Shown here: positions 3,127-7,377 of the stretch, piece by piece
Numbering within the stretch: the first letter of the stretch is position 1
Layout of the letters: the number at the start of each line of letters is the position of its first letter
DNA from: Halobacteriaceae archaeon
GTDB lineage: Archaea; Halobacteriota; Halobacteria; Halobacteriales; Halobacteriaceae
Assembly (NCBI GenBank): GCA_042216675.1
Contig: JBDGTS010000031.1
Coordinates: 1-11,760, forward strand
Direction of reading: 5' to 3'
Length of the DNA: 11,760 bases
Notes under the pieces: generated by a model
Told to the model about the DNA's origin: nothing
What the model saw: only the letters and a program-made list of their open reading frames with translations
The model's database searches: none
Made by a program: the position numbers and the translations under genes

Positions 3127-3825
3127 ATGACCGCGCCGTGGGACTCGTGGGATCACGTCCTCAAGGTGGACCCCGACAAGGACCTGCCGAACGGGGAGAC
3201 CTACGAGGACGTCGCGCAGACGGGCACCGACGCCATCGAAATCGGGGGGACCCTCGACGTGACCGCCGACAAGACACAGCGGATCATCGACGCCTGCCGC
3301 AAACACGACGTCCCCCTGTATCAGGAGCCGAGCAATCCCGCCGTCGTCGTCGAGGACGACGCCCTCGCGGGCTACCTCGTCCCCATCGTGATGAACGCCG
3401 GCGAGGTGTCGTGGATCACGGGCGCGCACAAGGAGTGGGTCCGGATGGACGACGTGGACTGGACCCGGACGACGACGGAGGCGTACGTCGTCCTCAACTC
3501 CGACGCGTCCGTCGCCCAACTCACCGACGCCGACTGCGACCAGACGGCCGGCGACGTGGCCGCCTACGCAGAAGTCGCGGAACAGATGTTCGGACAGGAA
3601 ATCGTCTACGTCGAGTACTCCGGGATGCTGGGCGACACCGAGAAGGTCGGCGCCGCACACGACGCCCTCGACGACGCAACCCTGTTCTACGGCGGCGGCA
3701 TCCACGGCTACGAGGACGCCACCGAGATGGCCGCGCACTCGGACGTCATCGTCGTGGGCGACTTGCTCCACGACGAGGGCTGTGCGGCCGTCCGCGAGAC
3801 GGTCCGCGGCGCTCGCGACGCGTAG
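3127..3825 (+). CDS. pcrB: Group I geranylgeranylglyceryl-phosphate synthase / PcrB-family prenyltransferase
   Basis: [33 protein letters not shown] and LFYGGGI motifs of the GGGPS/HepGP TIM barrel. ATG at 3127. Confidence 0.9.
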
Positions 3826-3869
3826 CGTGGGACACAAGAACAAAGCCCCATCCCGTCTTTTCCCCCAGA

Positions 3870-4523
3870 ATGAGTATCGTCGCCGAGTTCGAAATCCGCT
3901 CGCCCGACCTCACGCTCGCGCCGACGTTCGATGCCATCGACGGCGTGACGTACGACCTCGTCACTGAGGCCGCGACGGACCCCGAGCGGCCGGTATTGTT
4001 CTTCTGGGTCTCCGCGCCCGACTTCGACGCGTTCGAGGCGGCCCTCGACGACGACCCGACGGTGACGGACGTGACCCGACACGCCGACGAGGGGGACCGC
4101 CGCCTCTACCGCGTGCGCCTCACGGAGAACGTCGAGGTGGTCCTCTATCCGCTCTGGGCTCGGCTGGGCGCGGACCTGCTTCACGCTCGGTTCCGGGACG
4201 GCTGGTGGCAGTTCCGGGTCCGCTTTCCGGACCGCGACGCGGTGGGCACTATCCGCGACTGGTTCGCCGACCACGGCGTCGAGTTCCGGCTCCAGAGCGT
4301 CGTGCAGGCCGCTGCAATCGACGCCGACGAACCGCTCTCGGCCGCCCAAGCCGAGGCGCTCGAACTCGCCTTCGAGCGTGGCTACTTCGCCGTGCCGCGC
4401 GAAGCCTCGCTCGGGGAGTTGGCCGACGAACTCGACGTGACCGCGCAGGCAGTCTCCGAACGCCTCCGGCGCGGAACCGCCAACCTGCTCGCGGACCACT
4501 TCGACGGCGACCCCATCGCGTGA
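3870..4523 (+). CDS. Bacterio-opsin-activator-type (HTH_10) transcription regulator
   Basis: C-terminal 217 aa of the 3138-4523 ORF, from ATG 3870 (MSIVAEFEI). The C-terminal LSAAQAEALELAFERGYFAVPREASLGELADELDVTAQAVSERLRRG is the classic haloarchaeal HTH_10 motif. Confidence 0.9.
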   Translation: MSIVAEFEIRSPDLTLAPTFDAIDGVTYDLVTEAATDPERPVLFFWVSAPDFDAFEAALDDDPTVTDVTRHADEGDRRLYRVRLTENVEVVLYPLWARLGADLLHARFRDGWWQFRVRFPDRDAVGTIRDWFADHGVEFRLQSVVQAAAIDADEPLSAAQAEALELAFERGYFAVPREASLGELADELDVTAQAVSERLRRGTANLLADHFDGDPIA

Positions 4524-4570: not shown

Positions 4571-5875
4571 ATGGAAGGGCGAACCTACACCGCGGACGCG
4601 ACCCCCGGCGACCACGTCACCGTCGCCGGCTGGGTCCACGAGATCCGCGACCTCGGCGGCATCGCGTTCCTCATCCTCCGCGACAAGACCGGGCAGATTC
4701 AGGTCAAGTTCGAGAAAGACGAGATGGACGAGGACCTCGTGGAGACGGCGCTCGACGTCCACCGCGAGAGCGTCATCTCGGTCACTGGCGACGTGGAGGA
4801 GGAGGGCCGCGCCCCGACGGGCGTCGAAGTCGTCCCCGAGAGCGTCGACGTCATCGCGCCCGCGGACCCCGAACTCCCCCTCGACCCCTCGGGGAAGGTG
4901 GAGGCGGACCTCTCGACCCGACTGAACAACCGCACCCTCGACCTCCGGAAGCCCGAGACGAAGGCCATCTTCGAGATTCGGGCCGAGGTCCTGCGCGCGA
5001 CCCGGGAGGCGTTCCGCGGCCTCGGCTGCACCGAGATCAACACGCCGAAAATCGTCGCCACCGGGACGGAGGGCGGCACCGAGCTGTTCCCAATCACGTA
5101 CTTCGGCGAGGAGGCGTTCATGAACCAGAGCCCCCAGCTGTTCAAACAGCTGATGGTCGGCTCCGGGCTGGAACGCGTCTTCGAAATCGGCCCCATCTTC
5201 CGCGCCGAGGAGCACAACACGCCGCGCCACCTCAACGAGGCCACCTCCATCGACTTCGAGAGTGCGTTCGTCGACCACGAGGAGGCCATGGACGCCTGCG
5301 AGGCCGTCGTCGTCGCCGCGTACGACGCCGTCGCGGAGAACTGCGCCGAGCAGTTAGCGGCGCTGGGTATCGCCGACGAGTTCGAGGTGCCCGACGACGG
5401 TTTCCCCCGGCTCACCTACGAGGAGGCCATCGAGCGCGTGAACGCCTCGGGCGACCTCGACGAACAGTTGGTCTGGGGCGACGACCTCTCGACGGAGGCC
5501 GAACACGCGCTCGGCCAGACCGTCGGCGGCCACTACTTCGTCACCGACTGGCCCTCCAGCATCAAGCCGTTCTACATTCAGGACTACGAGGACGACCCCG
5601 ACGTGTCGAAGGGCTTCGACATGATGCATCCCCGGATGGAACTCGTCTCCGGCGGTCAGCGCGAGCACCGCCACGAGGCGCTGGTCGAGGGCTTCCGCCA
5701 GCAGGGGCTGGACCCCGACCAGTTCGAGTACTACACCAAGATGTTCCGCTACGGGATGCCGCCCCACGCCGGCTGGGGGCTGGGCGCCGAGCGCCTGCTG
5801 ATGACGATGCTTGACCTCGACAACATCCGGGAAGGCGTGCTGTTCCCGCGAGATCGTCAGCGCCTCTCGCCGTAG
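4571..5875 (+). CDS. aspS: Aspartate--tRNA(Asp/Asn) ligase, archaeal type
   Basis: OB-fold start ([19 protein letters not shown]), RL.NR.LDLR, motif 2 [13 protein letters not shown], motif 3 [16 protein letters not shown]-terminus [11 protein letters not shown]. Confidence 0.97.
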
Positions 5876-5893
5876 GCGACGGCGCAGACCATC
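5852..5893 (+). other. Imperfect hairpin centred on the aspS stop codon (possible 3'-end/terminator structure)
   Basis: GATCGTCAGCGCCTCTCGCC-GTA-GGCGACGGCGCAGACCATC: TCGCC/GGCGA, GCGCC/GGCGC, GTC/GAC and GAT/ATC can pair. Confidence 0.6.
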
Positions 5894-6017
5894 GAGCGGG
5901 TGCTTGCGGAATCTCTGATTCCGCTCTGTTCCCGCGAGACCGGCAGCGACTCTCTCCGTAGAGTCGGTGTCGAGCGGGTGCTTGCGGAATCTCTGATTCC
6001 GCTCTGTTCCCGCGAGA
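5892..6017 (+). repeat. Exact 48-bp direct repeat (5892-5939 = 5970-6017, period 78 bp)
   Basis: TCGAGCGGGTGCTTGCGGAATCTCTGATTCCGCTCTGTTCCCGCGAGA occurs twice. It contains the hairpin GCGGAATC-TCT-GATTCCGC and the aspS-derived CTGTTCCCGCGAGA. Confidence 0.95.
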
Positions 6018-6163
6018 TCGCCAACGGCTGAGCCCGTAACGAGGCCGAGCGAAGCGAGGCCTCGGGAATGCGAGCGGGAGCGAAGCGACACGCGAGCGGC
6101 GAAGCCGTTGGGAGCCAGCGAGACGCTACGTCTCGCACGGACCGGCAGCGACTCTCTCCGTAG
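5926..6163 (+). pseudogene. aspS: Three displaced fragments of the aspS 3' end (5926-5961, 6004-6039, 6140-6163)
   Basis: They translate to [22 protein letters not shown] and DRQRLSP*. Protein identical to the aspS C-terminus, with synonymous codon changes. Confidence 0.85.
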
Positions 6164-6171
6164 AGTCGGTG
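5938..6171 (+). repeat. Exact 32-bp direct repeat (5938-5969 = 6140-6171)
   Basis: GACCGGCAGCGACTCTCTCCGTAGAGTCGGTG occurs twice. It encodes DRQRLSP* and contains the hairpin CGACTCT-ctccgt-AGAGTCG. Confidence 0.95.
6040..6136. repeat. Cluster of short palindromes (REP-like)
   Basis: CGAGGCC-gagcgaagcga-GGCCTCG (6040-6064), a second GAGCGAAGCGA (6078-6088), CGGC-GAA-GCCG (6097-6107) and GCGAGACG-CTA-CGTCTCGC (6118-6136). Confidence 0.75.
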
Positions 6172-6282
6172 GCGCGCGGGGGCTCGTCAGGAGCGACAGT
6201 TCGGCCCGCTAGCACCGTGATAGCCGCCACGGACCGATTCGAGGGCTGACCTATTTGTTCGTGGCGTGTGAACGACGAACGC

Positions 6283-6516
6283 ATGACCGACGCGTACGTC
6301 AAAATCGTCTCCGACCCCGGCGCCGTCTCGCAAGCCGCACGAACCGTCGCGAACTTCGACGAGGTGAGCGACGCCCACGTCGTCACCGGCGAGTATGACA
6401 TCATCGCCCAACTCGAACTGAGCGACGACGAGGACCTGCCGGTGGTCGTGGGGGAACGCATCCACGGCGTCCCCGGGGTCATCGACACCGAGACCCACGT
6501 CGCGTTCGAACCCTGA
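6283..6516 (+). CDS. Stand-alone Lrp/AsnC ligand-binding (RAM) domain protein
   Basis: 77 aa, MTDAYVKI...V.DAHVVTGEYDIIAQLE...I.GVPGV.DTET.VAF, matches the AsnC C-terminal domain pattern with no HTH. Confidence 0.85.
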   Translation: MTDAYVKIVSDPGAVSQAARTVANFDEVSDAHVVTGEYDIIAQLELSDDEDLPVVVGERIHGVPGVIDTETHVAFEP

Positions 6517-6555: not shown

Positions 6556-7377
6556 ATGGGTAGCCCCGAGTCGGCGACGGCGTTCGCTCCGGGCCACGTC
6601 ACGGCCTTCTTCAGCGTCCACCGGCACGAGGACCCGGTCCGCGCGGGGTCCCGCGGCGCGGGCGTGGCGACGAGCGACGGCGTTACGACGACCGTCACCC
6701 CCGCCGACGAGACGACCGTCACGCTGAACGGTGCCGAAACGGTTATCGAACCGGTCGAGCGCGTCCTCGACACGCTCGGCGTGACCGCACACGTCGTCTG
6801 CGAGACGACGCTCCCCCTCGGGGCCGGGTTCGGCGTCTCCGGGGCCGCGGCGCTGGGGACGGCGTTCGCGGCCGACGCGGCCGTCGAGATGGGTCACTCG
6901 GAGAACCGACTCGTCACCGTCGCGCACGTCGCCGAAGTCCAGTCCGGAACCGGTCTCGGCGACGTGGTGGGGCAGGCCCGGGGGGGTCTGCCGGTCCGCC
7001 TCGACCCCGGCGCGCCAACCCAGGGCCGCCTCGACGGCGTGCCCGCGACGGGGCGCGTCGAGTATCTCACTTTCGGCGACCTCTCGACGGCCGAGGTCAT
7101 CGAGGGCGACGTGACCGACCTCTCGGCGGCGGGGGCGCGAGCCCTCGATTCGCTTCGGGACCGGCCGACGCCGGCCCGTCTCGTCGACGCCGGGCGGGCG
7201 TTCGCCCGAGAGGCCGACCTGCTCGTCGACGAGGTGCGCGCCGTGCTGGACGCCGTTCCCGAAGCGTCGATGGCGATGCTCGGCCGGAGCGTCTTCGCCT
7301 TCGGTACGGCGCTGACGGACGCGGGATACGACGCGTCCGTCTGCGAAATCGACCACGCTGGCGCCCGACGCCGCTGA
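6556..7377 (+). CDS. pok: Pantoate kinase (GHMP family; archaeal CoA biosynthesis)
   Basis: AFAPGHVTAFF, GSRGAG, GHMP motif LPLGAGFGVSGAAAL, AHVAEV..GTGLGDV, SMAMLG.SVF. Confidence 0.92.
   Translation: MGSPESATAFAPGHVTAFFSVHRHEDPVRAGSRGAGVATSDGVTTTVTPADETTVTLNGAETVIEPVERVLDTLGVTAHVVCETTLPLGAGFGVSGAAALGTAFAADAAVEMGHSENRLVTVAHVAEVQSGTGLGDVVGQARGGLPVRLDPGAPTQGRLDGVPATGRVEYLTFGDLSTAEVIEGDVTDLSAAGARALDSLRDRPTPARLVDAGRAFAREADLLVDEVRAVLDAVPEASMAMLGRSVFAFGTALTDAGYDASVCEIDHAGARRR

What the first reader, a model, noticed from the sequence alone, without database searches (positions are those of the whole stretch)
5840..6171. Stack of synonymously recoded aspS 3' ends: probable scar of repeated gene-end replacement
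Seen: the aspS end CTG TTC CCG CGA GAT CGT CAG CGC CTC TCG CCG TAG (5840-5875) is followed by CTG TTC CCG CGA GAC CGG CAG CGA CTC TCT CCG TAG (5926-5961; 4 changes, all at third positions), CTG TTC CCG CGA GAT CGC CAA CGG CTG AGC CCG TAA (6004-6039; 8 changes, all silent, including Ser TCG to AGC and stop TAG to TAA) and GAC CGG CAG CGA CTC TCT CCG TAG (6140-6163). The 14-bp CTGTTCCCGCGAGA is invariant in the three full versions. A neutrally decaying duplicate would not collect only silent changes, so each version probably once served as a real aspS terminus. Inference: something repeatedly enters at a fixed site about 12 codons from the end of this essential gene. It supplies a recoded replacement end and pushes the old end downstream, as integrative elements that restore their target gene do. 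Here, however, the modules are only ~80-140 bp with no integrase, which suggests a miniature non-autonomous element acting in trans, or a record of successive allele invasions. Recoding could also make the new allele immune to re-targeting.
Basis: partly seen in the sequence, partly recalled or inferred. Interest (0 to 1): 0.85.

Follow-up and report, generated by a model that had tools for sequence, protein, structure and literature searches.

The report
Stacked spare ends behind archaeal aspS
Behind the essential aspartyl-tRNA synthetase gene of this salt-loving archaeon lie three leftover, differently spelled copies of the gene's last codons, and about a quarter to a half of related species carry similar stacks, so this gene end is swapped again and again by a process nobody seems to have described.

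Summary
aspS (4571-5875) is followed by two full copies and one partial copy of its last codons; every difference from the real end is synonymous.

It is not a one-off. A strict pattern for this end gives 2-4 clustered copies in 107 of 401 Halobacteria genomes (my hand count), and 0 hits for the reversed control. 47 of 99 aspS loci carry at least one spare end. All spare ends lie within about 330 nt of the stop.

Each unit is 60-95 nt. It holds an end, an inverted copy of that same end (a palindrome centred on the stop) and a very stable small hairpin. Related genomes differ by single units added next to the gene. Distal ends are more decayed. The last 8 codons turn over faster than the rest of aspS.

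No integrase, virus match, distant copy or off-site copy was found.

Best reading: interchangeable "end cassettes" recombine at an invariant TTCCCGCGNGAY core and leave the old end behind. I cannot say whether host recombination or a trans-acting enzyme does this.

The scan noted similar recoded end copies on other DNA (mutL, gyrA, nrdJ); I did not check those notes. My literature searches found no description of the aspS stacks.

The parts
4571..5875 (+). aspS (aspartyl-tRNA synthetase), 434 aa
   Evidence: ORF list; Pfam tRNA-synt_2 E 6.6e-84 and tRNA_anti-codon
5840..5875 (+). End in use ([11 protein letters not shown] + TAG). 5840-5853 is the invariant core CTGTTCCCGCGAGA.
5876..5903 (+). 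Imperfect inverted copy of the real end. With 5843-5875 it forms a palindrome centred on the stop codon.
   Evidence: Read; the hairpin appears in the DNA fold; own-partner pairing is stronger than permuted pairing
5906..5924 (+). Small hairpin H, copy 1 (GCGGAAT-CTCTG-ATTCCGC)
   Evidence: the same 27-nt hairpin region occurs behind aspS of Natrinema limicola
5926..5961 (+). Spare end 1 (full length; out of frame with aspS; 4 synonymous differences)
5962..5981 (+). Inverted copy of spare end 1
   Evidence: (I6)
5984..6002 (+). Small hairpin H, copy 2 (part of the 48-nt exact repeat)
6004..6039 (+). Spare end 2 (full length; 8 synonymous differences; Ser AGC; stop TAA)
6040..6097 (+). Later insertion of a dispersed two-hairpin repeat into the loop of the palindrome of spare end 2
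   Evidence: Many copies in relatives' genomes. Metagenome contigs join 6035/6038 directly to 6098. Other copies in the window's own genome.
6098..6111 (+). Inverted copy of spare end 2 (pairs with 6021-6034)
   Evidence: (I5)
6112..6139 (+). 'Type II' hairpin GCGAGAC-GCTAC-GTCTCGC, which replaces the Phe-Pro-Arg codons in front of spare end 3
   Evidence: 34 of 73 units in relatives have this form
6140..6163 (+). Spare end 3 (DRQRLSP + TAG only), the oldest position in the stack
6164..6171 (+). Start of the inverted copy of spare end 3
   Evidence: I7
6283..6516 (+). Small Lrp/AsnC ligand-domain gene; variable filler between the stack and the GHMP kinase gene
6556..7377 (+). GHMP-kinase gene ('pok'), the conserved downstream neighbour of aspS
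   Evidence: Pfam. Found downstream on the same strand in 70 of 80 named loci, 7 nt to 4.6 kb after the aspS stop.

Best explanation
In Halobacteria the last 8-11 codons of aspS exist as several long-lived, differently spelled 'end cassettes'. A cassette is the coding end, an inverted copy of that end (so the stop codon sits in a long hairpin) and usually a second, very stable small hairpin.

All cassettes begin with the same invariant core, TTCCCGCGNGAY. Out-of-register recombination at this core joins the gene body to an incoming cassette and leaves the resident end just behind it. This could happen between chromosome copies of these polyploid cells, or with DNA from another lineage after mating or transfer.

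Selection keeps only products whose first end is intact. Identical neighbours would be lost quickly by repeat deletion, so only recoded neighbours persist. Ends that are no longer read decay, most strongly at the far side.

Shown here:
- the anatomy of the cassettes;
- that the stacks recur across the class;
- growth at the gene-proximal side;
- decay at the distal side;
- chimeric ends and duplicated two-cassette units;
- fast turnover of the terminal codons.

Inferred: that ordinary host recombination or repair, not a dedicated enzyme, does the joining, and that survivorship explains the recoding.

I put about 0.8 on 'repeated cassette replacement at the core' and about 0.45 on the host-recombination version.
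For: Recurrence:
- 107 of 401 genomes carry 2-4 strict copies; the reversed control gives 0 (the hand count fits the total of 454 hits).
- 47 of 99 loci carry a spare end.
- 52 of 84 loci do so by a nucleotide profile.

Only at aspS:
- 1 recoded case among 14650 ORF ends of the window's own genome.
- 26 of the 33 cases among 9685 ORF ends in 1.43 Mb of neighbouring DNA are aspS.

Growth at the gene-proximal side: the pairs L055/L068, L068/L089, L101/L111 and L108/L081 each differ by one unit of 71-119 nt next to the gene.

Order in Haloferax: X-Y-Z, Y-Z, W-Z and Y-X-W-Z. The distal part is shared.

Decay by position: intact ends are 33/52, 15/28, 4/15 and 0/4 at positions 1 to 4.

Recombination inside stacks:
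- a chimeric Y/Z end and a duplicated two-cassette unit in Haloferax sp. Q22;
- duplicated two-unit blocks in L028 and G094;
- an end replaced without its inverted copy in L017.

Terminal codon turnover: 24 TCN/AGY switches at the last Ser, against at most 10 at six other conserved Ser columns. Codon-state changes reach 38-41 at three of the last eight codons, against a gene-body maximum of 35 and a median of 12.

Spare ends differ from their own real end by 3 nt or more in 48 of 52 cases, yet lie 0-2 nt from another genome's real end in 51 of 52.
Against: - Cassette X (81 nt) is identical or 1 nt different in four Haloferax genomes whose aspS differs at 28-37 of 400 third codon positions. The last 100 nt of the gene differ at 2-6 sites in the six pairs examined, and the Pro and Val codons next to the cassette differ between G057 and G314. 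Long homologous exchange tracts would not give such a sharp-edged shared unit. It fits a discrete mobile unit, or strong constraint on the cassette.
- The homology available at the junction is only 9-14 nt. That is short for classical homologous recombination.
- The model does not explain why this happens at aspS only, nor how the palindromes arose.
- That the stacks persist across the whole class suggests drive or function rather than accident.
Confidence: 0.45

Rival explanations
1. The cassettes are tiny non-coding selfish elements. Each carries a working replacement end and is inserted site-specifically at the aspS core by an enzyme encoded elsewhere. Single-stranded hairpin recombination, as in integron attC sites or IS200/IS605-type ends, would be one way.
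For: - There are two fixed junction classes 9 nt apart: before TTCCC and at CGN|GAY.
- Cassette X is shared as a sharp-edged unit, more alike than the adjoining gene.
- The same hairpin region occurs in two different families, 26/27 alike.
- Entry is always at the first position.
- Palindromes and GCGAAGC-type loops are typical of single-strand DNA sites. The stability of this mini-hairpin is taken from the abstract of PMC13037366 in the listing.
- X and Y occur in both orders.
Against: - No enzyme was identified.
- Y1 transposase genes were found in 274 of 401 genomes, but not in the stack-bearing G000, G138, G317, G051 and G059.
- There are no off-site copies. Cassette X occurs once per genome in three g32 genomes, and in all 34 genomes with two or more listed pattern hits the hits are clustered.
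- The end-plus-palindrome part and the small hairpin assort independently (L068 versus L102), so the element has no constant boundaries.
- No free form was found in 2.9 million viral contigs or 50,697 phage records.
Confidence: 0.28
2. The stack is what remains of classical integrative viruses or plasmids that use the aspS 3' end as attachment site and restore it, as e14 and phage 21 do at icd. The element interiors have since been deleted.
For: - The layout of a replacement end followed by the displaced native end is that of e14 at icd/icdC (passages of PMC13626634).
- The aspS-to-kinase gap is a variable region of 7 nt to 4.6 kb with changing cargo.
Against: - No spare end lies beyond about 330 nt within +-10 kb in 80 loci, on either strand.
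- In 34 genomes with at least 2 listed hits, all copies lie within 220 nt of the next.
- Unit length is narrow: 64 of 73 units fall between 60 and 99 nt. Random interior deletions would not give this.
- No viral contig carries such an end.
- The cargo lies beyond the whole stack, not between two ends.
Confidence: 0.05
3. The units are functional parts of the aspS 3' untranslated region, such as terminator or RNA-stabilising hairpins. They are kept by selection, and the copies of the end are a by-product of needing an arm complementary to the coding end.
For: - Each end pairs best with its own downstream partner: mean duplex energy -31.3 versus -23.9 +- 0.43 kcal/mol for permuted partners, with 0 of 200 permutations reaching the observed value.
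- The region folds better than shuffles, z = -4.2.
- Cassette X is more conserved than synonymous sites of the gene.
- A 64-nt small RNA is listed in the intergenic region beside aspS of Haloferax mediterranei (one table passage of PMC5852579). I did not map it to the cassettes.
Against: - Five loci have aspS 7-25 nt from the next gene, with no palindrome at all. Several others have about 100-nt gaps without one. The structure is therefore dispensable.
- This reading does not explain intact stop-terminated coding copies with a Ser codon-family switch.
- Mismatches in the palindromes are not enriched for G.U-type pairs on the sense strand: 38 G.T against 96 A.C. This is a crude count on related sequences.
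Confidence: 0.12
4. A small hairpin element inserted once with a long target duplication of the gene end, and the copies then diverged in place.
For: In the window's own genome, 2 of 8 copies of another hairpin family (TTTTTGGTCCAGCTTTTTG-stem-CAAAAAGGTGG) are flanked by 62-nt and 33-nt direct duplications of a gene's 3' end. A 55-bp target duplication by ISH2 is reported in Halobacterium (passages of PMC7002104). Events of this kind could have founded the stack.
Against: - Divergence in place would hit non-synonymous sites in the unread copy. Yet 33 of 52 first-position spare ends are fully intact, while spare ends mostly differ from their own real end by 5 to 8 of 24 nt (35 of 52).
- The Ser TCN/AGY difference needs 2-3 coordinated changes.
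- Units within one genome are unlike each other but match units in other genera.
Confidence: 0.05
5. Assembly artefact: ends of several strains were chained together in a metagenome assembly.
For: The window is an 11.8-kb contig of a MAG that is 80% complete. It holds 48-nt and 32-nt exact repeats. No listed public contig spans 5922-5987.
Against: - Equivalent stacks occur in finished chromosomes of isolates, for example Natrinema zhouii CP059154, Halobellus marinus CP134946 and Halorarius litoreus CP101454.
- Four unique junction pieces of the window are matched exactly by contigs of two runs.
Confidence: 0.03

Closest known systems
e14 / phage 21 integration into icd of E. coli (icd plus the icdC remnant)
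   Same: An insertion near the 3' end of an essential or central gene brings a replacement end with synonymous differences and leaves the native end as a downstream remnant (passages of PMC13626634; the phage 21 case is recalled).
   Different: There the insert is a 15-kb prophage with its own integrase and there is a single remnant. Here the units are 60-95 nt without any gene, up to 4-5 are stacked, and no integrase or free form was found.
Mobile endonuclease ORFs (mORFs) that make gene hybrids in fungal mitochondria (atp6, atp9, cox2, nad3)
   Same: A foreign, recoded C-terminal coding piece is inserted and the native C-terminus is displaced downstream. The native piece matches close relatives (passages of PMC3630166).
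   Different: mORFs carry a LAGLIDADG or GIY-YIG endonuclease gene that drives the move. The aspS units carry no ORF.
REP / BIME palindromic repeats of bacteria
   Same: These are short imperfect palindromes just after genes, in mosaic arrays of units. GTAG-type REPs can even supply the TAG stop of the flanking ORF (passages of PMC3733652). The 58-nt piece at 6040-6097 behaves like such a dispersed repeat.
   Different: REPs are dispersed in tens to hundreds of copies and do not carry recoded gene ends. The aspS cassettes occur only at aspS. No RAYT-type partner was found.
Integron cassette arrays (recalled; no call)
   Same: Entry is at the first position, older units are pushed down, the unit ends are imperfect palindromes, and the enzyme need not lie inside the cassette.
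   Different: No IntI or attI was seen. The units carry no genes. The cargo genes behind the stack are not bounded by similar palindromes in the 4 loci checked.
SCCmec-type islands at the 3' end of rlmH/orfX (recalled; no call)
   Same: Tandem insertions leave a series of direct repeats that preserve the last codons of the target gene.
   Different: Those are large elements with serine recombinases, and the repeats are about 15-18 bp.

Membership tests
Integrase-borne integrative element that restores its target gene (e14/phage 21 type) | A replacement 3' end is read, and the native end is displaced downstream | tested here: met
Integrase-borne integrative element that restores its target gene (e14/phage 21 type) | The element carries an integrase/recombinase gene between the two ends | tested here: not met
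   Units are 60-95 nt without an ORF. No second end lies beyond about 330 nt in +-10 kb of 80 loci.
Integrase-borne integrative element that restores its target gene (e14/phage 21 type) | A free form (virus or plasmid) carries the attachment core | tested here: not met
   0 hits in viral contigs with two patterns. Only a 26-nt chance hit among phage records. Archaeal plasmids were not searched as such.
REP/BIME-like extragenic palindromes | A short imperfect palindrome immediately after a gene end | tested here: met
REP/BIME-like extragenic palindromes | Many dispersed copies per genome | tested here: not met
   Cassettes occur only behind aspS. The separate 6040-6097 piece is dispersed.
REP/BIME-like extragenic palindromes | An associated Y1 (RAYT/IS200-type) transposase | tested here: inconclusive
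   PF01797 is in 274 of 401 genomes, but was not found in G000 (80% complete), G033 (81% complete) or several complete stack-bearing genomes.
Mobile endonuclease ORF (mORF) gene hybrids | A homing endonuclease ORF between the inserted and the native C-terminus | tested here: not met
   No ORF fits in 40-60 nt spacers.
Integron | An integron integrase with attI next to the array | not tested
   ORFs in the gaps of 24 loci were only read by eye. No profile search for IntI was run.
Integron | Gene cassettes each ending in an attC-like palindrome | tested here: not met
   Units carry no genes. Hairpin scans of 4 cargo regions showed no shared palindrome at gene borders.
Ordinary tandem repeat evolving by unequal crossing-over | Units within one array are more alike than units between genomes (concerted evolution) | tested here: not met
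   48 of 52 spare ends differ by 3 nt or more of 24 from their own real end, while 51 of 52 are within 2 nt of another genome's real end.
CRISPR array | Identical repeats, variable spacers, cas genes or a leader | tested here: not met
   The repeats differ at synonymous sites and the spacers are conserved hairpins. cas genes were not searched for.

The most novel reading that the evidence does not exclude
The 60-95-nt units are a new kind of mobile DNA. They are gene-less palindromic 'end cassettes' that enter an essential gene a few codons before its stop, bring a differently spelled working end plus its own 3' hairpin, and are moved in trans by a so far unknown archaeal enzyme acting on hairpin DNA at the TTCCCGCGN|GAY core. 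The recoding may let the new allele escape whatever recognises the old end. Similar notes elsewhere in this scan (mutL, gyrA, nrdJ in bacteria; unchecked here) would then point to a widespread, overlooked class.
Probability: 0.28. Interest if true: 0.92.

Novelty: new variant of a known kind. Interest (0 to 1): 0.78.

Why it matters
An essential, highly conserved housekeeping gene turns out to have a fast-changing, modular 3' end across a whole class of archaea.

- The stacks are a readable record of successive replacements. The youngest unit sits next to the gene and the oldest is the most decayed. They could serve as lineage markers.
- They offer a natural assay for recombination between chromosome copies and between species in polyploid haloarchaea.
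- If an enzyme is behind it, this would be a new minimal mobile element that solves the problem of inserting into an essential gene with fewer than 100 nt.
- If not, it shows how palindromes plus a short invariant core can create cassette-like behaviour without any dedicated machinery.
- Practically, the repeats can mislead assembly, gene-end annotation and analyses of synonymous-site evolution.

Tried and rejected
- Rfam: only a sub-threshold microRNA match (14 bits against a 197-bit cut-off). No known RNA family.
- Viral contigs with the degenerate end pattern and with the hairpin-plus-core pattern: 0 hits. Phage records: one 26-nt chance hit, E = 0.1.
- Genome contigs with the 27-nt hairpin region: only Natrinema limicola, and there behind aspS.
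- Y1 transposase census: no tie to the stacks.
- GGGAGCCAGCGAGAC in 40 relatives: near background, except one genome (G033) with 19 copies of a dispersed repeat. G033's own aspS paralogs end differently and have no stack.
- Hairpin scan of cargo regions for attC-like borders: nothing shared.
- Wobble-type mismatch count meant to tell RNA-level from DNA-level selection: 38 G.T against 96 A.C, with many G.A. The method is crude and the sequences are related, so I treat it as inconclusive.
- Expression: no RNA holder was listed for this stretch.
- A small RNA is listed beside aspS in H. mediterranei. I could not map it, because that genome did not appear among the named loci. The paper's supplements, which I could not see, may hold its sequence.
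- Some joints (for example 5862>6007) come from short contig sides at 90% likeness and probably from other organisms. I did not use them as evidence for variants.
- Literature searches found no description of aspS end stacks. One search concerned the mini-hairpin only. Searches retrieved the closest known systems.
- An early note of mine gave 10 of 19 relatives with extra copies. The recount gives 8 of 19.
Full report
THE OBSERVATION. The window is a complete 11,760-nt contig (C55) of a 2.15-Mb, 80%-complete genome assembled from a metagenome. aspS is the 434-aa ORF at 4571-5875, with the class II synthetase core and the anticodon-binding OB fold. Its last 36 nt (5840-5875, [11 protein letters not shown] + TAG) recur three times:
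- at 5926-5961, with 4 differences;
- at 6004-6039, with 8 differences, including Ser TCG>AGC and TAG>TAA;
- at 6140-6163, as the last 24 nt only.

All differences are synonymous and all copies end in a stop. The 14-nt core occurs three times in the genome, all here.

- Each end is followed by an imperfect reverse complement of itself. The linker motif TCGAGCGGG..C is the complement of ..GTTCCCGCGAGA, so the stop codon sits in the middle of a long palindrome.
- Between one palindrome and the next end lies a small, very stable hairpin (5906-5924 and 5984-6002).
- 5892-5939 and 5970-6017 are a 48-nt exact repeat, and 5938-5969 equals 6140-6171.
- As single-stranded DNA, 5826-6190 folds at -108.6 kcal/mol against -90.6 +- 4.3 for shuffles (z = -4.2). 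The centroid structure shows just these hairpins.
- 6040-6097 is a later insertion of a dispersed two-hairpin repeat into the loop of the third palindrome. It has many copies in relatives and other copies in this genome. Metagenome contigs of other organisms join 6035/6038 directly to 6098.

IS IT REAL HERE? Public contigs of two runs of one study (possibly the source sample) match 5782-5921, 5988-6099, 6073-6169 and 6142-6500 without any difference. No listed piece crosses 5922-5987, which lies inside the repeats. The order and number of units in this MAG therefore rest on the original assembly. The general phenomenon does not depend on this contig, because finished chromosomes of isolates show the same thing.

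IT RECURS ACROSS THE CLASS, AND ONLY AT aspS.
- A degenerate pattern for [10 protein letters not shown] + stop hits 331 of 401 Halobacteria genomes, 454 times. The reversed control gives 0.
- By my hand count, 107 genomes have 2-4 hits. This count reproduces the total of 454.
- In all 34 genomes with at least two listed hits, the copies are on one strand and at most 220 nt apart.
- In 80 named loci with +-10 kb, 34 have extra copies (at least 8 of 11 residues, with stop). All lie within 323 nt after the real stop, none on the other strand and none elsewhere.
- With a looser rule, 47 of 99 loci carry 1-4 spare ends (some loci are duplicates). With a nucleotide profile, 52 of 84 do.
- In the window's own genome, 7 of 14650 ORF ends have a downstream copy of their tail, and only aspS is recoded.
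- In 1.43 Mb around aspS of 80 genomes, 33 of 9685 ORF ends have such a copy, and 26 of these are aspS.

ANATOMY OF THE UNITS. The 73 units measure mostly 60-95 nt.
- In 39 units the next end begins at the Phe codon (TTCCC...).
- In 34 units it begins exactly at the Asp codon, preceded by GCGAGAC-loop-GTCTCGC. The window's fourth end is of this second kind.
- Hairpin loops are often GAGCGAAGCGA, in either orientation. GCGAAGC is the known extraordinarily stable DNA mini-hairpin (abstract of PMC13037366 in the listing).
- Each end pairs with its own downstream partner far better than with partners of other units: -31.3 against -23.9 +- 0.43 kcal/mol, with 0 of 200 permutations reaching the observed value.

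EVIDENCE FOR REPEATED REPLACEMENT.

1. Related genomes differ by one unit at the gene-proximal side.
- Natrinema hispanicum CDM_6 (L068) has 86 nt more than strain DSM 18328 (L055).
- N. limicola (L089) has a further 73 nt.
- Natronorubrum texcoconense (L111) has 71 nt inserted exactly at CGN|GAC relative to Natronorubrum sp. DTA7 (L101), and its second end equals that strain's real end 24/24.
- Halopiger goleimassiliensis (L081) relates to Natrarchaeobius (L108) in the same way.

2. In 19 Haloferax-group loci (L136, identical to L140, is counted once), a few cassette types (X, Y, Z, W) occur in the orders X-Y-Z, Y-Z, W-Z and Y-X-W-Z. The distal Z unit and a decayed fossil are shared, and the proximal part varies.

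3. Spare ends decay with position. Fully intact ends are 33/52, 15/28, 4/15 and 0/4 at positions 1 to 4. The threshold lets in a few false hits far downstream.

4. Spare ends belong to the pool of real ends. 51 of 52 lie within 2 nt of another genome's real end and 11 are identical, while 48 of 52 differ by 3-10 nt from their own real end. An independent-codon null gives 9% identical.

5. On a FastTree of 79 aspS sequences built without the last 12 residues, the last Ser switches between TCN and AGY 24 times, against 7, 2, 10, 7, 0 and 0 for the other conserved Ser columns. Codon changes at the last eight codons are 32, 23, 38, 16, 41, 24, 38 and 13, against a gene-body median of 12 and maximum of 35.

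WHAT IT IS NOT.
- No integrase-sized insert lies between ends, and no virus carries such an end. Classical integrative elements are therefore unlikely.
- It is not an indispensable terminator. Five loci have aspS 7-25 nt from the next gene (a GHMP kinase that is syntenic in 70 of 80 loci) and show no palindrome. Several loci with about 100-nt gaps also lack one.
- It is not simple divergence in place after one duplication. Too many unread copies are intact.
- It is not concerted evolution. Neighbours are unlike each other.
- There is no Rfam family.

HOW IT MOST LIKELY WORKS. All cassettes share the invariant core TTCCCGCGNGAY, and recombination inside stacks is directly visible:
- a chimeric Y/Z end and a duplicated two-cassette block in Haloferax sp. 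Q22;
- two-unit duplications in L028 and G094;
- an end replaced without its inverted copy in L017;
- a pseudo-end that abuts the real stop in L052.

I therefore favour out-of-register recombination at the core, between genome copies or with foreign DNA, filtered by selection for an intact first end and by loss of identical neighbours. I put about 0.8 on cassette replacement as such and about 0.45 on the host-recombination version.

AGAINST THE HOST-RECOMBINATION VERSION. Cassette X is 0-1 nt different over 81 nt in four Haloferax genomes. Their aspS differs at 28-37 of 400 third positions, the last 100 nt of the gene differ at 2-6 sites in the pairs examined, and the Pro and Val codons beside the cassette differ between G057 and G314. 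X is also single-copy, with no off-site copies. This sharp-edged sharing fits a discrete mobile unit, or strong constraint on the cassette. A trans-mobilised mini-element therefore remains a serious rival (0.28). No enzyme could be tied to it.

A POSSIBLE FOUNDING MECHANISM. In the window's own genome, another hairpin family has 8 copies. Two of them are flanked by 62-nt and 33-nt direct duplications of a gene's 3' end. Long target duplications are also reported for ISH2 in Halobacterium (passages of PMC7002104).

COMPARISON WITH KNOWN SYSTEMS.
- The layout matches e14 at icd/icdC (passages of PMC13626634) and the mORF gene hybrids of fungal mitochondria (passages of PMC3630166). Both carry a gene for the enzyme that moves them; these units carry none.
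- REP/BIME elements share the palindromic, post-gene, mosaic character and can supply a TAG stop (passages of PMC3733652). They are dispersed and do not recode gene ends.
- Integron arrays and SCC elements at rlmH are recalled analogies, not tested here.
- My searches found no description of aspS end stacks.
- Earlier notes of this scan describe similar recoded end copies behind mutL, gyrA and nrdJ in bacteria. I did not check them.

VERDICT. The feature is a class-wide, aspS-specific stack of palindromic end cassettes. The agent remains open.

Noticed in passing
window 6040-6097; also G000 C19:27001-27200 and C1:108090-108150: A dispersed two-hairpin repeat of about 58 nt (CGAGGnn-GAGCGAAGCGA-nnCCTCG, then GRAAWG-CGAGCGG...). 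It lies directly after stop codons, occurs three times in tandem with a 61-nt period on C19, and has many copies in relatives' genomes. The stems vary and the loop is conserved.
   Followed up: partly
G000 C17 (minus strand, about 35.5 kb on the reverse complement) and C25:7397-7535: A second hairpin family (TTTTTGGTCCAGCTTTTTG-variable stem-CAAAAAGGTGG) has 8 copies. Two of them are flanked by 62-nt and 33-nt direct duplications of the 3' end of a 766-aa and a 311-aa ORF. In the C25 pair, two of the three differences are synonymous.
   Followed up: partly
L040, L041, L047, L050, L051, L105, L110: between the aspS stack and the GHMP kinase gene: The gap between aspS and its conserved neighbour ranges from 7 nt to 4.6 kb and holds changing cargo. 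A pair of small ORFs recurs in seven genera. By eye it looks like a ribbon-helix-helix antitoxin with a PIN-type toxin; no profile search was run.
   Followed up: no
G033 (loci L113-L131, L134, L135): One relative has at least 17 copies of a dispersed intergenic repeat that contains TTCCCGCGA(A/G) ... GAGCGGGAGCCAGCGAGAG-loop-CTCTCGC. These are the same motifs as in the aspS units. No Y1 transposase was found there, and its own aspS genes end differently.
   Followed up: partly
genus code g20: None of 52 genomes of one large genus matches the end pattern, so aspS probably has a different C-terminus there. Whether it has stacks of its own was not examined.
   Followed up: no
L206 (JAWODQ010000047.1): A contig labelled as a Bacillota MAG carries a haloarchaeal-type aspS, 85% identical to the Haloferax query. 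The contig is probably mis-binned.
   Followed up: no
Haloferax mediterranei, intergenic HFX_0639/HFX_0640 (from PMC5852579): A 64-nt small RNA (HM3_V) is listed in the intergenic region beside aspS. It may be a stable RNA derived from a cassette hairpin. It was not mapped here.
   Followed up: no
window 3138-4523: The gene upstream of aspS encodes a BAT/HTH_10 (bacterio-opsin-activator-like) regulator. A homologue lies upstream of aspS in only a minority of the 80 loci.
   Followed up: no
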